Origin: Escherichia coli O157:H7
GTDB lineage: Bacteria; Pseudomonadota; Gammaproteobacteria; Enterobacterales; Enterobacteriaceae
Assembly (NCBI RefSeq): GCF_013167455.1
Contig: NZ_CP038328.1
Reading direction: 5' to 3' (one strand)
Length of the DNA stretch: 64,000 bases
Shown here piece by piece: positions 24,701 through 33,700 of this stretch (its first letter is position 1; the number at the start of each line of letters is the position of its first letter). Position numbers: made by a program.

Positions 24701-27700
24701 TATGATGTCAGCACCACCGGAACGGGGGGCGGCGGTGGCGAATATCCATTACAGGATGGCTTTGGCTGGACCAATGGCGTGACGCTGAAAATGCTGGATT
24801 TGATCTGCCCGAAAGAGCAACCGTGTGACAATGTTCCGGCGACGCGTCCACTCAGTGAATCAACAACACAGCCGGTAAAACAAAAAGAGGCGGAACCTAC
24901 GCCTTAACTTTGCTGTATATCGAGCAATGCCATTATGTGCATAAAATTGGCATTGCTCTTTTTTCGCCACGAAATGCCCCCCATTCTACGGTCTATGCTT
25001 TTATTTTCTTATATCAGAGAAGATTTTAATTTTATTTTATTTTATCAATTTGTTAATCAGTACACCTCTATTTATATTTTTCGCCACTCCGCCATTCTCC
25101 CTGACAATTTTCTTGTGGAACAAAGTGTTATTTAAGCAACAAGCAAATCATTCTGTCTCTTTAGACAAATTTTGACATCAAACATGATTTTTTTCGATAT
25201 ATATGTAAATATATAGCGGTTTTAATTATCAGGATATAACTTATGTCACTAACCAGACGGAGGTTTACACAGATTCTTGCGTCGACGTTGTTCCTGCATC
25301 ATCTGCCTTCTTTTGCACAATCAGTCAAATTCTGGGCCTCACTGACGCTTCCCGAAGCCCAAAACATTACACGCATCGTCAGCGCAGGTGCGCCCGCCGA
25401 TTTGCTATTGCTGGCTGTCGCGCCAGAAAAAATGGTCGGTTTTTCCTCTTTTGATTTTGCCCGTCAGGCATTAATTCCATTGTCAGAGCACATTCGCCAG
25501 TTACCCAGGCTGGGACGACTCGCCGGGCGCGCCAGCACACTCTCGCTGGAAGGGCTTATGGCGTTACATCCCGATTTGGTCGTTGATTGCGGCAATACGG
25601 ATGAAACCTGGATCTCCCAGGCACGGCAGGTTAGCGAACAGACACAAATACCCTGGTTATTGCTTAACGGGAAACTGGCGCAATCAGCAGAACAGTTAAC
25701 AACGCTTGGCAAAACGTTAGGCGAAGAGCATCGCGCCGCAGAACAAGCCAATCTCGCCAGCCGCTTCGTTGGTGAAGCTCAGGCATTCGCCGCCTCACCC
25801 GCCGCTAACCTCCGCTTTTATGCTGCGCGCGGCCCTCGAGGGCTGGAGACGGGCTTAAAGGGTTCGTTGCATACCGAGGCGGCGGAATTATTAGGTTTGC
25901 ACAACGTCGCGCAAATAGCCGATCGCCAAGGCCTGACACAGGTTTCCATGGAAAATCTCCTGCGCTGGCAGCCGGATATTATTCTGGTTCAGGAGGCCGT
26001 TACTGCAGATTTTATTCGTCGTGATCCTCTCTGGCATGGCGTGAAAGCCGTTGCAGAACAACGCATCTTATTTTTAAGTGGCTTGCCCTTTGGCTGGCTG
26101 GATGCCCCACCGGGAATCAACCGTCTTCTGGGATTACGCAGACTTCACGCCTGGCTGGATCCCGCCATCAATCGCCAGTTTAAAAGTGACATGCAGCATT
26201 ACGCCCAACTGTTCTGGCATTGTTCACTCAGTGACGCCGACTATCAAAAATTGGTGGCGACCTAATGAGAATCGTAAACGGATGTATTTTGCTGCTGGCA
26301 GCTATCAGTATCACTTTTGCCGCCGTAAGTGGGGCTTATCATCTCGATATGCAGCAACTGCTGGCGCTAATTCTTCGTCAAGAAAATGTTCCTGTGCAGG
26401 AACAAATTGTCTTCTGGCAAATCCGCGTGCCGCGTATTCTTGCTGCGCTGTTACTGGGCGCGGCGCTGGCAGGAGCCGGAACCACCTATCAGGGAATGTT
26501 GCGTAATCCCTTAGTTTCACCGGATATTTTAGGCGTCTCCGCCGGTGCCGGACTTGGTGCCTGCACGGCAATTCTGTGGGGATTATCCATTGTTTACATC
26601 CAGCTGTACGCATTTTGTGGCGGGCTGATGGTGGTCGCGGGCGTCTGGTTGATTACGCGTCGGGTGACCCGCCACGATCCGATCTTAACCCTGGTGCTGG
26701 TAGGCATCGCGTTAGGAACGTTGTGCGGAGCGGGGATATCGCTAATTAAAACGCTGGCCGATCCTTACACCCAGTTACCGTCAATTACCTTCTGGTTGCT
26801 GGGGGGACTGTCCACCGTGACCTTACGCGATCTCTGCTATGCTGCACCGATCATTCTCATAGGCTCCTTGCCCCTGTTTTTTCTCCGCTGGCGCATGAAT
26901 TTACTCACGCTTTCCGACGACGAAGCCCGTTCGCTGGGACTGAACGTGACGCGTCTGCGCTTTGTATTGATTGTCTGCGCCACACTAATCACCGCCAGTA
27001 CGGTAGCAATAGCGGGCATAATTGGTTGGGTCGGCCTGGTCGTTCCGCACATTGCCCGCTTGTTGACCGGTCATAACCATCAGCAGCTGTTGCCCATGGC
27101 AATGTGTACTGGCGCGATTCTGCTCCTGCTTACCGATACGCTGGCACGCAGCATTGGAACAACAGAAATCCCACTTGGCATTCTGACCGCTTTTGTTGGC
27201 GCACCGTTTTTCCTGCTTTTGTTGTTACGCGGAGGTCGCCAGTGACTTTGCTTGCCGTCCGTCATGCGTCTCTGGGTTACTCCCGCCATCCGGTGCTACG
27301 CGACGTGTCCTTCACCCTGTCGCAAGGAACAATTTGTTGTCTGTTAGGAGCCAATGGTTGCGGCAAAACCACACTCATGCGCTCCATTCTTGGCGTTATA
27401 CCGTTATTAAAAGGCGAGGTCTTACTGGATAGCCTCCCTGTGCAGACACTCAGCCATCGCCAGCGCGCGCAGGCTATTGCCTGGGTGCCGCAGGCGCACG
27501 ACGGTATTTTTGCTTTTAGTGTGCTGGATATGGTGTTGATGGGCCTGGCCCCCACCATAGGCGCTTTTTCCGTTCCCGGTAAGCAAGAACGCCTGAAAGC
27601 CACGGAGCAACTGGAAAAGCTGGGCATTTTGCATCTGGCGGCACGACGCTGGAATACGCTTAGCGGCGGTGAACGTCAGCTGGCTTTAATCGCCCGTGCA

Positions 27701-30700: not shown

Positions 30701-33700
30701 GTGCGTGAAAACGATCTGCTGACGTTTGCCGTTAACTGGAAAGATGACGTACACCGGGAAAAAGGTGCGCCGCACGCCGCTTACGATCGCTATGAAGATC
30801 GTACCTGGTCGCTCGCCAGTGAATATCAATGGGCTGCTGCCGATAATGTCGATGTTGTGGCTGGAATCAGCTATGACTGGCGCGATAGCGTAGAAGCGAA
30901 AAAACACGAGAAAGATGGCAGCATCACCCATTATGACGACAACAATCAGTCAGCTTTTAACTGGCAGGTGATGGGGAAATACCACTTTGTCAATGAAGAC
31001 ACGCTGGCGCTTTCGTACTATGACCGCAAACGCTTTCCGACGCTGAAAGAACGCTATACCACATCCAAACCTGCGTATAACCAGATAGCGATTGTTAACC
31101 CGCAGCTCAAGCCGGAACGCGCTCGCGGGGTGGATTTAACCTGGAATGGTGCCTTCACGCACGACTGGGGATTTGAGGTCAGCGTTTACTATAACCGGGT
31201 GAGTGATGCCATCCTCTCGCACAATATCGATGCCGATACCATTCAAAATCAGAACAGCGGCACGGTGGATTACAGCGGTCTGGATGCCGGTATTAAGGGG
31301 AAAATCAGCAATATACTGGATGTAGGATTGAGCTACGCCCTGATCCACGCTGACGCCAAACGTAAAGACATCGGCAAGATAACCGATCTGCCAACGCAGA
31401 CAATGACCGCATGGATGACTCTCAAACCGTGGGAGCCGTTAAGCGTAACGCTGTCGGAAGAGGCGCGTTCCTCCAGCTACAGTAACAGTGACGGTTCACA
31501 AAAAGCCGCCGGTTTTGCGGTGACCCACATTCGAGCCGATTACACCTTAGGTCATGGCTTCAGCGTCAATGCGTCGGTCAATAACCTGTTTGATACCCAA
31601 TATGCCTACAGTGAAGGGTTTGTTGAAGAAGGTCGCAATTTCTGGGCAGGTGTCGAGTATACGTTCTGATGTGAAAGCGGATAGCGGCATCTGTATCGCT
31701 ATCCGCCTTATGAAAATCTTATTCTCTTCGCAGGAGGCGGAATACGCCCAGAACGAGAATAGCTCCCACCACCGCCACCAGGAAGCTGTGCAAATTAAAA
31801 CCGCTGATGGAGCCGCCAATGCCAAACATGGTCGCCAGCCAGCCGCCGACCACCGCACCGACTATCCCGAGAATACAGGTCAGGAAAAATCCACCACCAT
31901 CACGCCCCGGCATGATTAGCTTGGCGATAATGCCGGCTATCAGGCCAAAAATAATCCAGGCAATAATTCCCATGTTCAGGCCCTCGTTTCGATGAATCGG
32001 ACGCAAGAAATGCTTACGTCAACGCTCTAAGTATAGGCAAGGGCGGGATCGATGCTGGGCGTATGTCGGCTGATTTAAGAACAACATGTAAAAAATATTC
32101 ACGCATTTGTATTAAGTTTTGTTAACTGTGACCGATAAACCAAAGACAGTTTGTCAGTCAGGAGTTTTTCCGCGTGAGTCATTACCATGAGCAGTTCCTG
32201 AAACAAAATCCGTTAGCCGTCCTGGGCGTGTTACGCGATTTGCACAAAGCCGCAATTCCTTTGCGTCTCAGTTGGATTGGCGGGCAGCTGATCAGCAAAA
32301 TACTGGTAATAACCCCGGATAAACTGGTGCTGGATTTCGGCAGTCAAGCCGAAGACAACATCGCCGTGCTAAAGGCACAGCACATTACCATTACCGCCGA
32401 AACTCAGGGTGCGAAAGTCGAGTTTACTGTTGAACAACTACAGCAGAGTGAATACTTGCAGCTTCCGGCATTTATTACCGTACCGCCTCCCACCTTATGG
32501 TTTGTACAACGACGCCGATATTTCCGCATCTCCGCCCCACTCCATCCGCCTTATTTTTGCCAGACCAAACTGGCGGATAACAGTACGTTACGTTTCCGCC
32601 TGTATGATTTGTCGTTAGGCGGCATGGGCGCATTACTGGAAACAGCAAAACCTGCCGGGTTGCACGAAGGTATGCGCTTCGCTCAGATTGAAGTCAACAT
32701 GGGGCAATGGGGTGTTTTTCACTTTGACGCCCAGTTAATCTCCATCAGCGAGCGCAAAGTGATTGATTGAACCGCCCCGGAAATCCTGGAGACTAAACTC
32801 CCTGAGAAAGAGGTAAACAGGATGACTAAAAATACTCGTTTTTCCCCCGAGGTCCGTCAACGGGCAGTTCGTATGGTTCTGGAAAGTCAGGGCGAATATG
32901 ACTCACAATGGGCGGCAATTTGTTCCATTGCCCCAAAGATTGGCTGTACACCAGAGACTCTGCGTGTGTGGGTTCGTCAGCATGAGCGGGATACCGGGAG
33001 TGGTGATGGTGGACTCACCACCGCTGAACGTCAGCGTCTGAAAGAGCTGGAACGTAAAAATCGTGAACTGCGCCGCAGTAACGATATCCTTCGCCAGGCT
33101 TCCGCTTATTTTGCGAAGGCGGAGTTCGACCGCCTCTGGAAAAAATGATGCCACTGCTGGATAAGCTGCGTGAGCAGTACGGGGTCGGACCGGTATGCAG
33201 CGAACTGCATATTGCCCCGTCAACGTATTACCATTGTCAGCAACAGCGACATCATCCGGATAAACGCAGTGCCCGTGCGCAGCACGACGACTGGCTGAAG
33301 AGAGAGATACAGCGCGTATACGATGAAAATCATCAGGTGTACGGTGTGCGTAAAGTCTGGCGTCAGTTGTTACGGGAAGGAATCAGGGTGGCCAGATGCA
33401 CTGTGGCACGTCTCATGGCAGTTATGGGACTTGCCGGTGTTCTCCGGGGTAAAAAGGTCCGCACTACCGTCAGCCGGAAAGCCGTTGCCGCATGCGACCG
33501 CGTAAACCGTCAGTTCGTGGCAGAACGTCCAGACCAGTTGTGGGTGGCTGATTTTACCTGGGTAAGCACATGGCAGGGCTTCGTTTATGTGGCGTTCATC
33601 ATTGATGTGTTCGCCGGATACATCGTGGGATGGCAGGTCTCATCATCCATGGAAACAACATTCGTGCTGGATGCACTGGAGCAGGCGTTGTGGGCCCGTC

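What the first reader, a model, noticed from the sequence alone, without database searches (positions are those of the whole stretch)
25243..31669. Six-gene TonB-dependent/ABC uptake operon with an embedded methyltransferase and ModD-like enzyme
One tightly coupled + strand operon encodes a Tat-signal periplasmic binding protein, a FecCD permease, an ABC ATPase, a class I SAM methyltransferase, a ModD-like (phosphoribosyltransferase-fold) protein and a 656-aa TonB-dependent receptor. Junctions are overlaps or gaps of 25 nt or less (TAATG, GTGA, ATGA), so the two enzymes are translationally tied to the transporter. That is not the usual siderophore, heme or B12 layout; it suggests an imported small molecule is chemically modified, or that a modified compound is made and recycled. 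It sits between treA and ymgE, where I recall K-12 having only the small ycgY gene.
Basis: partly seen in the sequence, partly recalled or inferred. Interest (0 to 1): 0.8.

Follow-up and report, generated by a model that had tools for sequence, protein, structure and literature searches.

The report
Molybdate-controlled TonB/ABC uptake operon
This six-gene E. coli O157:H7 operon has long been annotated as an iron transporter, but it carries a perfect, widely conserved binding site for the molybdate sensor ModE and is related to the Haemophilus Mol molybdate importer, so it is most likely a molybdenum-scavenging system that has not been tested experimentally.

Summary
The six genes are at the stated coordinates and belong to the stated families. 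One detail is wrong. In this window the methyltransferase has an in-frame amber codon (TGG to TAG, 28652-28654), an O157:H7-specific pseudogene, which leaves 164 untranslated nt before modD.

The cluster is already catalogued as O157 island OI#55/S-loop#83, the 'prrA-modD-yc73-fepC' cluster of uropathogenic E. coli. It is annotated as putative iron uptake, and I found no functional study.

New here: a perfect ModE operator (CGATATATA-TGTAAA-TATATAGCG, 25195-25218) lies 25 nt upstream of the first gene. It matches the consensus better than E. coli's own modA operator. Related boxes sit upstream of the orthologous operon in about 60 species, often with a second box before the receptor gene. Across 1.49 Mb there are 81 sites, 77 correctly placed, against 0.4 expected. 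There is no Fur box and no riboswitch. The permease's best solved relative is Haemophilus MolB. In Comamonadaceae the genes are interleaved with modA and modB.

Best reading: a ModE-repressed, TonB-dependent, Mol-like molybdenum uptake system. It includes two accessory enzymes of unknown substrate, which also occur under ModE boxes without the transporter. This is a new variant of a known kind.

The parts
25172..25177 (+). Candidate -35 hexamer TTGACA of the operon promoter
   Evidence: Read directly from the sequence. TTGAC is one of only two conserved blocks in an alignment of the upstream regions from 14 species. No canonical -10 lies at 17 nt spacing. The -10 region lies inside the ModE box. 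The promoter is inferred, not shown.
25195..25218 (.). ModE (molybdate-responsive repressor) operator CGATATATA-TGTAAA-TATATAGCG
   Evidence: It matches 18 of 18 specified bases of the E. coli ModE consensus atCGnTATATA-N6-TATATAnCGat (consensus quoted in PMC545781). It is the only match in the 64 kb window even when 2 mismatches are allowed, against 0.01 expected. The established modA operator scores 2 mismatches with the same pattern and lies at a similar distance from its ATG. The box is conserved upstream of orthologous operons in about 60 species.
25243..26265 (+). Periplasmic substrate-binding protein, class III (Peripla_BP_2), with a twin-arginine signal
   Evidence: A profile search against PDB gives 4PAG at 189 bits, 4OVK at 89 and Haemophilus MolA (3PSA) at 77. 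Siderophore, heme and B12 binding proteins score 52 bits or less.
26265..27245 (+). FecCD-family (type II ABC importer) permease
   Evidence: The best solved relative is HI1471 (MolB, 2NQ2) at 223 bits. FhuB scores 172, HmuU 163 and BtuC 144.
27242..28000 (+). ABC ATPase. It starts at GTG and overlaps the permease stop (GTGA)
28010..28822 (+). Class I SAM-dependent methyltransferase ('yc73'). It is a pseudogene here, with an amber codon at 28652-28654 (W215*)
   Evidence: (RefSeq 'internal stop'). The truncation removes two helices and the last core beta-strand, including the invariant W256, A257 and W261. The allele is found in 195 of 2140 E. coli records that carry the gene. O55:H7 has the intact gene.
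28819..29673 (+). ModD, a quinolinate-phosphoribosyltransferase-like protein
   Evidence: TIGR01334 at 505 bits. The PRPP/Mg and TRK/HR residues of M. tuberculosis QAPRTase are invariant. Lys172 is replaced by an invariant Phe163, and Arg105 by an invariant Lys94. It has its own Shine-Dalgarno sequence, GGAGG.
29699..31669 (+). TonB-dependent outer-membrane receptor ('prrA'), 656 aa
   Evidence: Plug plus beta-barrel. It falls below every NCBIfam subfamily cut-off. No solved structure matches at E of 1e-8 or better. A TonB-box-like DSLTVWS follows the signal peptide, and the protein ends in Phe (read).
31677..31706 (.). 10-bp perfect hairpin between the convergent receptor gene and ymgE. It is a candidate terminator
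   Evidence: Sequence GCGGATAGCG-N10-CGCTATCCGC read. It is not supported by a strong T tract.

Best explanation
The operon is a molybdate-starvation-induced uptake system.

1. When cytoplasmic molybdate is plentiful, molybdate-bound ModE sits on the palindrome at 25195-25218. The palindrome overlaps the -10 region downstream of a TTGACA -35, so the promoter is blocked.
2. When molybdenum is scarce, the operon is transcribed.
3. The TonB-dependent receptor then uses the proton-motive force to pull a molybdenum species across the outer membrane. That species is molybdate or tungstate itself, or a small Mo complex.
4. The Tat-exported class III binding protein passes it to a MolBC-like type II ABC importer.
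5. Two cytoplasmic enzymes are co-expressed. One is a small-molecule SAM methyltransferase. The other is ModD, a PRPP-dependent phosphoribosyltransferase-like enzyme with a remodelled substrate pocket.
   - They belong to the same molybdate-starvation response, and their substrates are unknown.
   - Because they also occur without the transporter, they more likely act on cytoplasmic molybdenum handling or on Mo-sparing chemistry than on an imported ligand.
6. In O157:H7 the methyltransferase has been lost to a nonsense mutation.

What is shown and what is inferred:
- Shown: the gene content, the operator sequence and its conservation, the homologies, and the pseudogene.
- Inferred: ModE binding and repression, the transported species, and the enzyme roles.
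For: - The operator is a perfect match and unique in the window. It is a better match than the real modA operator, which was found by the same scan as a positive control.
- Phylogenetic footprint: in 1.49 Mb from 80 loci of other species there are 81 sites with 2 or fewer mismatches.
  - 77 lie within 400 nt upstream of the binding-protein gene (43), the receptor gene (29) or the methyltransferase gene (5).
  - Shuffled sequence gives 0.4 sites.
- In an alignment of the upstream regions of 14 species, only TTGAC and the palindrome are conserved.
- In a Rhodoferax genome (and partly in a Comamonas one) the order is modA, receptor, binding protein, permease, ATPase, methyltransferase, modA-like, modB, modD. 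The modA, modB and modD calls are above NCBIfam cut-offs.
- The permease is closest to H. influenzae MolB. The binding-protein profile ranks MolA above all siderophore, heme and B12 binders.
- MolBC-A binds and imports molybdate and tungstate, is repressed by molybdate, and lies next to modD and a modA paralogue (PMC4031551, PMC3928620).
- ModD also occurs in the modDABC operon of Geobacter, behind a ModE site (PMC545781).
- No Fur box reaches 14 of 19 matches upstream.
- ECs1693, ECs1698 and ECs1699 are absent from the O157 Sakai Fur ChIP-exo and Fur regulon tables (PMC10164565).
- No riboswitch was found.
Against: - No experiment on this operon was found, so ModE binding, molybdate repression and the substrate are all untested.
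- The binding protein is only distantly related to MolA (37 bits pairwise, 77 bits by profile). Its closest solved relative, 4PAG, has no function known to me.
- Type II ABC importers and TonB-dependent receptors usually carry bulky chelates. Free molybdate can cross porins, and E. coli already has ModABC.
- MolA has low affinity (about 100 uM), which fits poorly with scavenging (PMC3928620, PMC4031551).
- The roles of the methyltransferase and ModD are unexplained. Fold and profile searches gave only generic methyltransferase matches.
- The comparative set was anchored on the methyltransferase, so it does not show how often the transporter occurs without it.
- Every public database names the transporter parts 'iron'.
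Confidence: 0.65

Rival explanations
1. It imports an organic molybdenum carrier, not free molybdate. The carrier could be a catecholate or pyridine-carboxylate type 'molybdophore', or a pterin or molybdenum-cofactor fragment. The methyltransferase and ModD would then process the ligand in the cytoplasm to release or recycle the metal.
For: - TonB-dependent receptors and type II ABC importers typically carry large chelates. The nearest relatives of the permease beyond MolB are FhuB, HmuU and BtuC.
- The methyltransferase gene follows the ATPase gene in 63 of 80 loci, and modD follows it in 51.
- ModD keeps the PRPP-binding and catalytic residues of quinolinate phosphoribosyltransferase but has a changed substrate pocket. 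It could therefore act on another pyridine-carboxylate-like ligand.
- ModE control fits this reading equally well.
Against: - The methyltransferase, alone or with ModD, occurs in 17 of 80 loci with no transporter nearby, several of them still behind a ModE-like box.
- ModD sits in plain modABC operons that have no receptor (PMC545781, PMC3928620).
- ModD is missing from the otherwise complete operon in Shewanella and others.
- O157:H7 keeps the transporter but has lost the methyltransferase.
- There are no biosynthesis or export genes for such a ligand in the operon.
Confidence: 0.15
2. It is an ordinary iron or siderophore uptake system, as annotated ('iron ABC transporter', 'possibly mediating iron uptake'). 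On this reading the ModE-like palindrome is incidental.
For: - Database names and the older literature say iron (PMC1890555, PMC2323221, PMC12928451).
- The receptor gives sub-threshold hits to siderophore and heme receptor models.
- The FecCD and Peripla_BP_2 families are dominated by iron-chelate systems.
Against: - The best Fur-box match upstream is 13 of 19, which is background level for this window.
- The operon's first and last genes are absent from the O157 Sakai Fur ChIP-exo and Fur regulon tables.
- The ModE box is conserved across gamma- and beta-proteobacteria at the same position, so it cannot be incidental.
- The genes are interleaved with modA and modB in Comamonadaceae.
- Siderophore, heme and B12 binding proteins are more distant than MolA.
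Confidence: 0.06
3. It is a molybdenum-sparing response, not a metal importer. When Mo-dependent hydroxylases and reductases fail, the cell would express Mo-independent substitute chemistry. That chemistry would be methylation and phosphoribosylation of N-heterocycles or similar compounds. It would be paired with a transporter for the organic substrate concerned.
For: - The two enzymes are ModE-linked even without the transporter.
- Repression of cofactor-independent alternatives by the cofactor is a recognised regulatory pattern (discussed in PMC545781).
- The ModD pocket differs from that of the quinolinate enzyme.
Against: - There is no direct evidence for any such substrate.
- The transporter's characterised relative carries molybdate (PMC4031551).
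- Physical clustering with modA and modB points to the metal itself.
Confidence: 0.08
4. It is a corrinoid or heme uptake system. This was suggested by weak methyltransferase similarity to CbiT/CpaM and permease similarity to BtuC.
For: - CpaM at 43 bits and CbiT at 44 bits are the top methyltransferase hits, both far below cut-off.
- An archaeal BtuC model is the top NCBIfam hit for the permease, also below cut-off.
Against: - No cobalamin riboswitch or any Rfam match was found between 24000 and 32500, even at E of 1 or less.
- BtuF and heme binding proteins score 34-49 bits against 77 for MolA.
- ModE control is conserved.
Confidence: 0.02

Closest known systems
Haemophilus influenzae MolBC-A (HI1470-HI1472) with adjacent modD (HI1473) and a modA paralogue (HI1469)
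   Same: - Both have a type II (FecCD-type) ABC importer with a class III binding protein.
- MolB is the best solved relative of the permease here.
- MolA is the best functionally characterised relative of the binding protein.
- Both have a modD neighbour, and Mol shows molybdate-dependent repression (PMC3928620, PMC4031551).
   Different: - No TonB-dependent receptor or methyltransferase is reported in the Haemophilus cluster.
- The binding protein here is not a close MolA orthologue (37 bits pairwise).
- MolA has low affinity. The regulator of mol was described as unknown, whereas here a canonical ModE operator is present.
E. coli ModE regulon and the modABC high-affinity molybdate transporter
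   Same: Both have the same operator architecture, at about the same distance from the first start codon. The modA box ends 20 nt upstream and this one 25 nt upstream.
   Different: ModABC is a type I ABC importer with a class II binding protein and no dedicated outer-membrane component. None of its proteins is homologous to those encoded here.
TonB-dependent plus type II ABC chelate systems (FhuABCD, FecABCDE, BtuB/BtuFCD, Hmu/Chu)
   Same: The overall machinery is the same: plug-and-barrel receptor, Peripla_BP_2 binding protein, FecCD permease and ABC ATPase.
   Different: - There is no Fur box, and no riboswitch or sigma/anti-sigma pair.
- Control is by ModE.
- Two enzymes are embedded in the operon.
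- The receptor matches no curated subfamily and no solved structure at E of 1e-8 or better.
ModD of Rhodobacter capsulatus modABCD and Geobacter modDABC (TIGR01334)
   Same: Same family (505 bits), with the same association with molybdate transport genes and ModE sites (PMC545781). The Rhodobacter case rests on my own knowledge of the TIGRFAM description.
   Different: In those organisms ModD accompanies ModABC. Here it accompanies a TonB/type II system and a methyltransferase. Its biochemical function is unknown in every case.
NadC quinolinate phosphoribosyltransferase
   Same: Same fold. T138-R139-K140, H161-R162, E201, D203 and D222 (M. tuberculosis numbering) are conserved.
   Different: It scores below the NadC cut-off (135 against 198 bits). 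Catalytic Lys172 is an invariant Phe and Arg105 an invariant Lys across 50 ModD sequences.
TonB-dependent receptors for metals other than iron, such as ZnuD (zinc), FrpB4 (nickel) and OprC/NosA (copper). This comparison rests on my own knowledge.
   Same: The concept is the same: an energised outer-membrane receptor controlled by the cognate metal sensor.
   Different: No sequence relationship was shown here. The copper-receptor model scores only 51 bits, far below its cut-off. I know of no characterised receptor for molybdenum.

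Membership tests
ModE regulon (molybdate-responsive operons) | Operator matching atCGnTATATA-N6-TATATAnCGat in the promoter region | tested here: met
   18 of 18 specified bases match at 25195-25218. It is unique in 64 kb against 0.01 expected. The modA positive control gives 2 mismatches.
ModE regulon (molybdate-responsive operons) | Operator conserved at the same position in orthologous loci of other species | tested here: met
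   77 of 81 sites in 80 loci lie upstream of the binding-protein, receptor or methyltransferase genes. Shuffled sequence gives 0.4. The footprint is visible in alignment A4.
ModE regulon (molybdate-responsive operons) | ModE binding and molybdate-dependent repression in vivo | not testable with these tools
   This needs gel shift or ChIP plus reporter or RNA measurements. No such data were found in the paper library.
MolBC-A type molybdate/tungstate type II ABC importer | FecCD-type permease most similar to MolB (HI1471) | tested here: met
   2NQ2 is the top PDB hit at 223 bits. The next is FhuB at 172.
MolBC-A type molybdate/tungstate type II ABC importer | Binding protein orthologous to MolA (HI1472) | tested here: inconclusive
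   Pairwise score is 37 bits over 80 residues. By profile it is 77 bits, third after 4PAG (189) and 4OVK (89) and ahead of all chelate binders. It is related but not clearly orthologous.
MolBC-A type molybdate/tungstate type II ABC importer | Genomic association with modD and modA-type genes | tested here: met
   modD is in the operon. modA and modB are interleaved with it in Rhodoferax, and modB lies next to modD in Comamonas. This parallels HI1469-HI1475 (PMC3928620).
MolBC-A type molybdate/tungstate type II ABC importer | Binding and transport of molybdate or tungstate | not testable with these tools
   This needs ITC or crystallography of the binding protein and uptake assays.
Fur-regulated TonB-dependent iron or siderophore uptake system | TonB-dependent receptor with plug, barrel and TonB box, plus a FecCD-type ABC importer | tested here: met
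   The DSLTVWS motif was read.
Fur-regulated TonB-dependent iron or siderophore uptake system | Fur box in the promoter, or Fur binding | tested here: not met
   The best match is 13 of 19, which is background level. ECs1693, ECs1698 and ECs1699 are not in the Sakai Fur ChIP-exo or Fur regulon tables.
Fur-regulated TonB-dependent iron or siderophore uptake system | Membership of a curated siderophore or heme receptor family | tested here: not met
   TIGR01783 scores 125 bits (cut-off 223.5) and TIGR01785 scores 125 bits (cut-off 317).
Cobalamin uptake (BtuB/BtuFCD) | Cobalamin riboswitch leader and a BtuF-like binding protein | tested here: not met
   No Rfam match at E of 1 or less between 24000 and 32500. 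BtuF scores 34 bits by profile.
NadC (quinolinate phosphoribosyltransferase) | Score above the equivalog cut-off and a conserved quinolinate-binding Lys172 and Arg105 | tested here: not met
   135 bits against a cut-off of 198. Phe163 and Lys94 are invariant at those positions.
ModD (TIGR01334) | Score above the curated cut-off over the full length | tested here: met
   505 bits against a cut-off of 179, covering residues 2-278 of 284.
Class I SAM-dependent methyltransferase | Rossmann-like fold with the DxGCGxG SAM motif and an intact reading frame | tested here: not met
   The motif and fold are present in intact alleles (invariant D65, G67, C68, G69, G71; AF2 model pLDDT 91). In this window the frame is cut at codon 215, which removes the last core strand.

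The most novel reading that the evidence does not exclude
This would be the first TonB-dependent molybdenum acquisition pathway. The outer-membrane receptor and a Mol-like ABC importer would take up a molybdenum species under ModE control. It is present in about 40% of E. coli genomes and across Citrobacter, Proteus, Providencia, Morganella, Shewanella and Burkholderiales. ModD and the methyltransferase would carry out a previously unknown cytoplasmic step in molybdenum handling or ligand release. That would finally give ModD a function.
Probability: 0.25. Interest if true: 0.85.

Novelty: new variant of a known kind. Interest (0 to 1): 0.62.

Why it matters
- Molybdenum-cofactor enzymes drive the anaerobic respiration that lets Enterobacteriaceae bloom in the inflamed gut and colonise the urinary tract. 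Only ModABC and non-specific anion carriers are recognised as molybdate routes in E. coli.
- A second, energised, ModE-controlled route would change how molybdenum limitation and tungstate treatment are understood. It is found mainly in pathogenic and non-K-12 lineages, and in Proteus, Providencia, Morganella and Citrobacter.
- It would correct a widespread 'iron transporter' annotation.
- It would give a tractable genetic handle on ModD, whose function has been open since the Rhodobacter modABCD work, and on a conserved ModE-linked methyltransferase.
- For this particular O157:H7 window the system looks partly decayed, because the methyltransferase is a pseudogene.

Tried and rejected
- **Fur box.** I scanned with the 19-mer consensus. 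The best match upstream is 13 of 19, no better than background.
- **RNA elements.** An Rfam scan of 24000-32500 at E of 1 or less found nothing, so a cobalamin or other riboswitch is rejected.
- **Promoter and terminator scan.** Counts were at chance level, and no canonical promoter was called at the operon start.
- **Methyltransferase substrate.** All three searches gave only generic class I small-molecule methyltransferases, so no substrate can be inferred.
  - NCBIfam: best hit CpaM at 43 bits.
  - Profile against PDB: best hit CbiT at 44 bits.
  - AF2 model plus Foldseek: TM 0.5-0.57.
- **Receptor.** No PDB sequence match at 1e-8.
- **Papers I could not read.** These are not in the held library, so I cannot exclude that Studholme & Pau or RegPrecise already list this ModE site.
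  - Ye & Xu 2001.
  - Studholme & Pau 2003.
  - Tirado-Lee 2011.
- **Literature searches.** All ten were used. None returned a paper linking this cluster, or any TonB-dependent receptor, to ModE or molybdenum.
  - One search was largely wasted, because 'mode' is a common word.
- **Other sources checked.**
  - The Proteus mirabilis modA-mutant transcriptome has no supplement held.
  - The Shewanella regulon paper lists ModE without targets.
  - A Cupriavidus preprint hit was irrelevant.

Full report
**1. What is in the window**

ORF listing confirms six co-directional genes:
- a 340-aa binding protein (25243-26265)
- a FecCD permease (26265-27245)
- an ABC ATPase (27242-28000)
- a class I SAM methyltransferase starting at 28010
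- ModD (28819-29673)
- a 656-aa TonB-dependent receptor (29699-31669)

- ModD scores 505 bits on TIGR01334, well above its cut-off. It scores below the NadC cut-off.
- The permease and ATPase match FecCD and ABC models.
- The binding protein is Pfam Peripla_BP_2, and the receptor has Plug and barrel domains.

The junction sequences TAATG, GTGA and ATGA are as described.

One detail is wrong. The methyltransferase frame carries TAG at 28652-28654 where intact alleles have TGG (W215).
- In this window the ORF therefore stops at 214 of 270 codons, 164 nt before modD.
- A strain that is 100% identical over 24900-31800 is annotated with this gene as a pseudogene ('internal stop').
- The AF2 model of the intact protein (pLDDT 91) shows that the lost segment includes the last core beta-strand and invariant tryptophans. 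The truncated product is therefore very probably inactive.
- An 81-nt probe around the mutation is identical in 195 of 2140 E. coli records that carry the gene, all listed examples being O157:H7-type. O55:H7 has the intact gene.

**2. It is a known island with no known function**

The region is present at 80% coverage or more in 2139 of 5426 complete E. coli genomes. It is absent from K-12-like strains, where only ymgE matches. K-12 has ycgY between ymgE and treA.

The literature identifies it as O157 S-loop#83/OI#55, genes ECs1693-1699 (Z1961-Z1966). [quoted passage not shown]
- It is described only as 'proposed' or 'possibly' involved in iron uptake (PMC1890555; PMC2323221 Table 5; PMC12928451, citing Ye & Xu 2001 and Guyer 1998).
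- Public protein names follow suit: 'iron ABC transporter...' and 'Putative pyrophosphorylase ModD'.
- I found no functional study.

**3. The upstream region points to molybdenum, not iron**

Reading 24880-25320 shows CGATATATA-TGTAAA-TATATAGCG at 25195-25218.
- The published E. coli ModE consensus is atCGnTATATA-N6-TATATAnCGat (quoted in PMC545781 from Studholme & Pau 2003).
- All 18 specified positions match.
- It is the only match in the 64 kb window even when two mismatches are allowed, against 0.01 expected.

As a positive control I ran the same pattern on 30 kb around modABC of E. coli DH1.
- It finds exactly one site, the established modA operator CGTTATATTGTCGCCTACATAACG.
- That site has two mismatches and ends 20 nt before the modA ATG.
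- The site here ends 25 nt before the first ATG, and a TTGACA hexamer lies 17 nt upstream of it.

By contrast:
- The best Fur-box match upstream is 13 of 19, which is background level.
- ECs1693, ECs1698 and ECs1699 are absent from the O157 Sakai Fur ChIP-exo and Fur regulon tables (PMC10164565).
- No Rfam family matches.

**4. Comparative genomics**

Homologues of the intact methyltransferase occur in Enterobacterales, Shewanella, Neisseriaceae, Burkholderiales, Wohlfahrtiimonas and Pasteurellaceae. A scan of one genome per species returned 80 loci.

tblastn mapping of those loci gave these gene orders:

| Gene order | Loci |
|---|---|
| Complete: binding protein, permease, ATPase, methyltransferase, ModD, receptor | 37 |
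| Same order without ModD (Shewanella, Wohlfahrtiimonas, a Neisseriaceae MAG and others) | 11 |
| Receptor-first in Burkholderiales | at least 5 |
| Methyltransferase alone | 12 |
| Methyltransferase plus ModD only | 5 |

- The ATPase gene is directly upstream of the methyltransferase in 63 loci.
- modD is directly downstream in 51 loci.

Scanning all 1.49 Mb for the ModE pattern with 2 or fewer mismatches gives 81 sites.
- 43 lie within 400 nt upstream of the binding-protein gene, 29 upstream of the receptor gene and 5 upstream of the methyltransferase gene. Only 4 lie elsewhere.
- Locally shuffled sequence gives 0.4 sites.
- Proteus, Providencia, Morganella, Shewanella and Pectobacterium have a second box in the spacer before the receptor gene.
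- Several transporter-less loci (Mixta, Edwardsiella, and the decayed Pluralibacter operon) keep a box in front of the methyltransferase.
- In an alignment of the 110 nt upstream of the first gene from 14 species, only TTGAC and the palindrome are conserved.

In a Rhodoferax genome the genes are interleaved with molybdate transport genes. The order is modA, receptor, orf, binding protein, permease, ATPase, methyltransferase, modA-like, modB, modD. The modA, modB and modD calls are above NCBIfam cut-offs. A Comamonas locus also has modB next to modD.

**5. Relationship to characterised systems**

- The permease's best solved relative is H. influenzae HI1471 (MolB) at 223 bits. FhuB scores 172, HmuU 163 and BtuC 144.
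- A profile of 22 orthologous binding proteins ranks 4PAG (189 bits) and 4OVK (89), both uncharacterised as far as I know. HI1472 (MolA) follows at 77 bits. Heme, B12 and siderophore binders score 52 or less.
- MolBC-A binds and imports molybdate and tungstate, and molB transcription falls when molybdate is added (PMC4031551).
- The mol genes lie in HI1469-HI1475 together with a modA paralogue and modD (PMC3928620).
- ModD also heads the Geobacter modDABC operon behind a ModE site (PMC545781).
- The receptor matches no curated receptor subfamily and no solved structure at E of 1e-8 or better.

**6. The two enzymes**

ModD:
- It keeps the QAPRTase residues that bind PRPP/Mg and the TRK and HR motifs. 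These are invariant across 50 sequences.
- It replaces catalytic Lys172 with an invariant Phe, and Arg105 with an invariant Lys.
- It is probably still a phosphoribosyltransferase, but not one acting on quinolinate.

Methyltransferase:
- It is a well-folded class I enzyme whose nearest structural neighbours are assorted small-molecule N-, O- and C-methyltransferases at TM of about 0.55. No substrate can be inferred.

Both enzymes persist under ModE-like boxes without the transporter, and ModD accompanies plain ModABC elsewhere. I therefore think it more likely that they act on a cytoplasmic step of the molybdate-starvation response than on an imported ligand. This is inference.

**7. Model and confidence**

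- I put about 0.9 on ModE control.
- I put about 0.65 on the overall reading: a molybdate-starvation-induced, TonB-dependent, Mol-like molybdenum uptake system.
- Rival 1, about 0.15: the cargo is an organic Mo complex processed by the enzymes.
- Rival 2, about 0.08: a Mo-sparing response with an organic cargo.
- Rival 3, about 0.06: iron uptake as annotated.
- Rival 4, about 0.02: corrinoid or heme uptake.

Weak points:
- There is no experiment on this operon.
- The relationship to MolA is distant.
- MolA has low affinity.
- It is unclear why free molybdate would need an energised receptor.

**8. Novelty**

The genes and their annotation are old. The ModE link, the kinship with MolBC-A and the conserved enzyme module are not in any paper I could search. 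I could not read Studholme & Pau 2003 or consult RegPrecise, which may list the site. I rate it a new variant of a known kind: a metal-sensor-controlled TonB/ABC uptake system, here for molybdenum. It is of good but not top interest, because the mechanism is still inferred and the copy in this window is partly decayed.

Noticed in passing
window 23220-24907: treA is split into two overlapping ORFs (23220-23588 and 23450-24907). RefSeq marks treA as 'frameshifted' in the strain that is identical over the adjacent region, so periplasmic trehalase is probably a pseudogene here.
   Followed up: partly
window 32765-34077 and 37796-39108: Two IS3-family elements (orfA 108 aa, orfB about 296 aa; IS629-like by recollection) lie in inverted orientation and are 95% alike. 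The first truncates ycgR at codon 198. Together they bracket emtA-ldcA-cvrA (3.7 kb) in a composite-transposon-like or inversion-prone arrangement. The closest complete genome (CDC#03-98) has no IS in ycgR.
   Followed up: partly
window 24908-25242: The 335-nt spacer before the operon is very AT-rich (GC 0.38 in 25000-25499). It contains a 66-aa ORF (24935-25135) that probably corresponds to the 'hypothetical' Z1967/ECs1700. It looks like non-coding promoter DNA, not a gene.
   Followed up: no
L019 (Pluralibacter gergoviae) 3800-5900; L005 (Citrobacter koseri) 7200-10000: These operons are decaying in different ways. Pluralibacter keeps only the methyltransferase, with a perfect ModE box, among fragments of the other five genes. 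C. koseri has frameshifted binding-protein, permease and ATPase genes but intact methyltransferase, ModD and receptor genes. O157:H7 shows the opposite pattern, with the transporter intact and the methyltransferase dead.
   Followed up: partly
L044 (Proteus mirabilis) 11757-11780, and the equivalent sites in Providencia, Morganella, Shewanella and Pectobacterium loci: A second ModE-like box lies in the 100-300 nt spacer between modD (or the methyltransferase gene) and the receptor gene. This implies a separate molybdate-controlled promoter for the receptor. E. coli has only a 25-nt gap and no second box.
   Followed up: partly
L003 ('Collinsella sp.' MAG contig, 3168 nt): This contig is 98% identical at protein level to the E. 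coli ATPase, methyltransferase and ModD genes. It is almost certainly an Escherichia contig mis-binned into an actinobacterial MAG.
   Followed up: no
L020 and L021 (Affinibrenneria salicis, same scaffold); L081 (Pasteurella canis) 3180-6986: Affinibrenneria shows two copies of the whole operon with identical hit coordinates, at two places on one scaffold. Pasteurella canis shows a perfect inverted duplication of the methyltransferase and its neighbouring 268-aa ORF (not identified). Each could be a real duplication or an assembly artefact.
   Followed up: no
cluster 3: The 90%-identity cluster look-up placed the ModD protein and the unrelated methyltransferase in one cluster. This is possibly because read-through or fused gene calls across the ATGA overlap bridge them. 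An Edwardsiella tarda entry (P0111) likewise fuses an ABC ATPase fragment to the methyltransferase.
   Followed up: no
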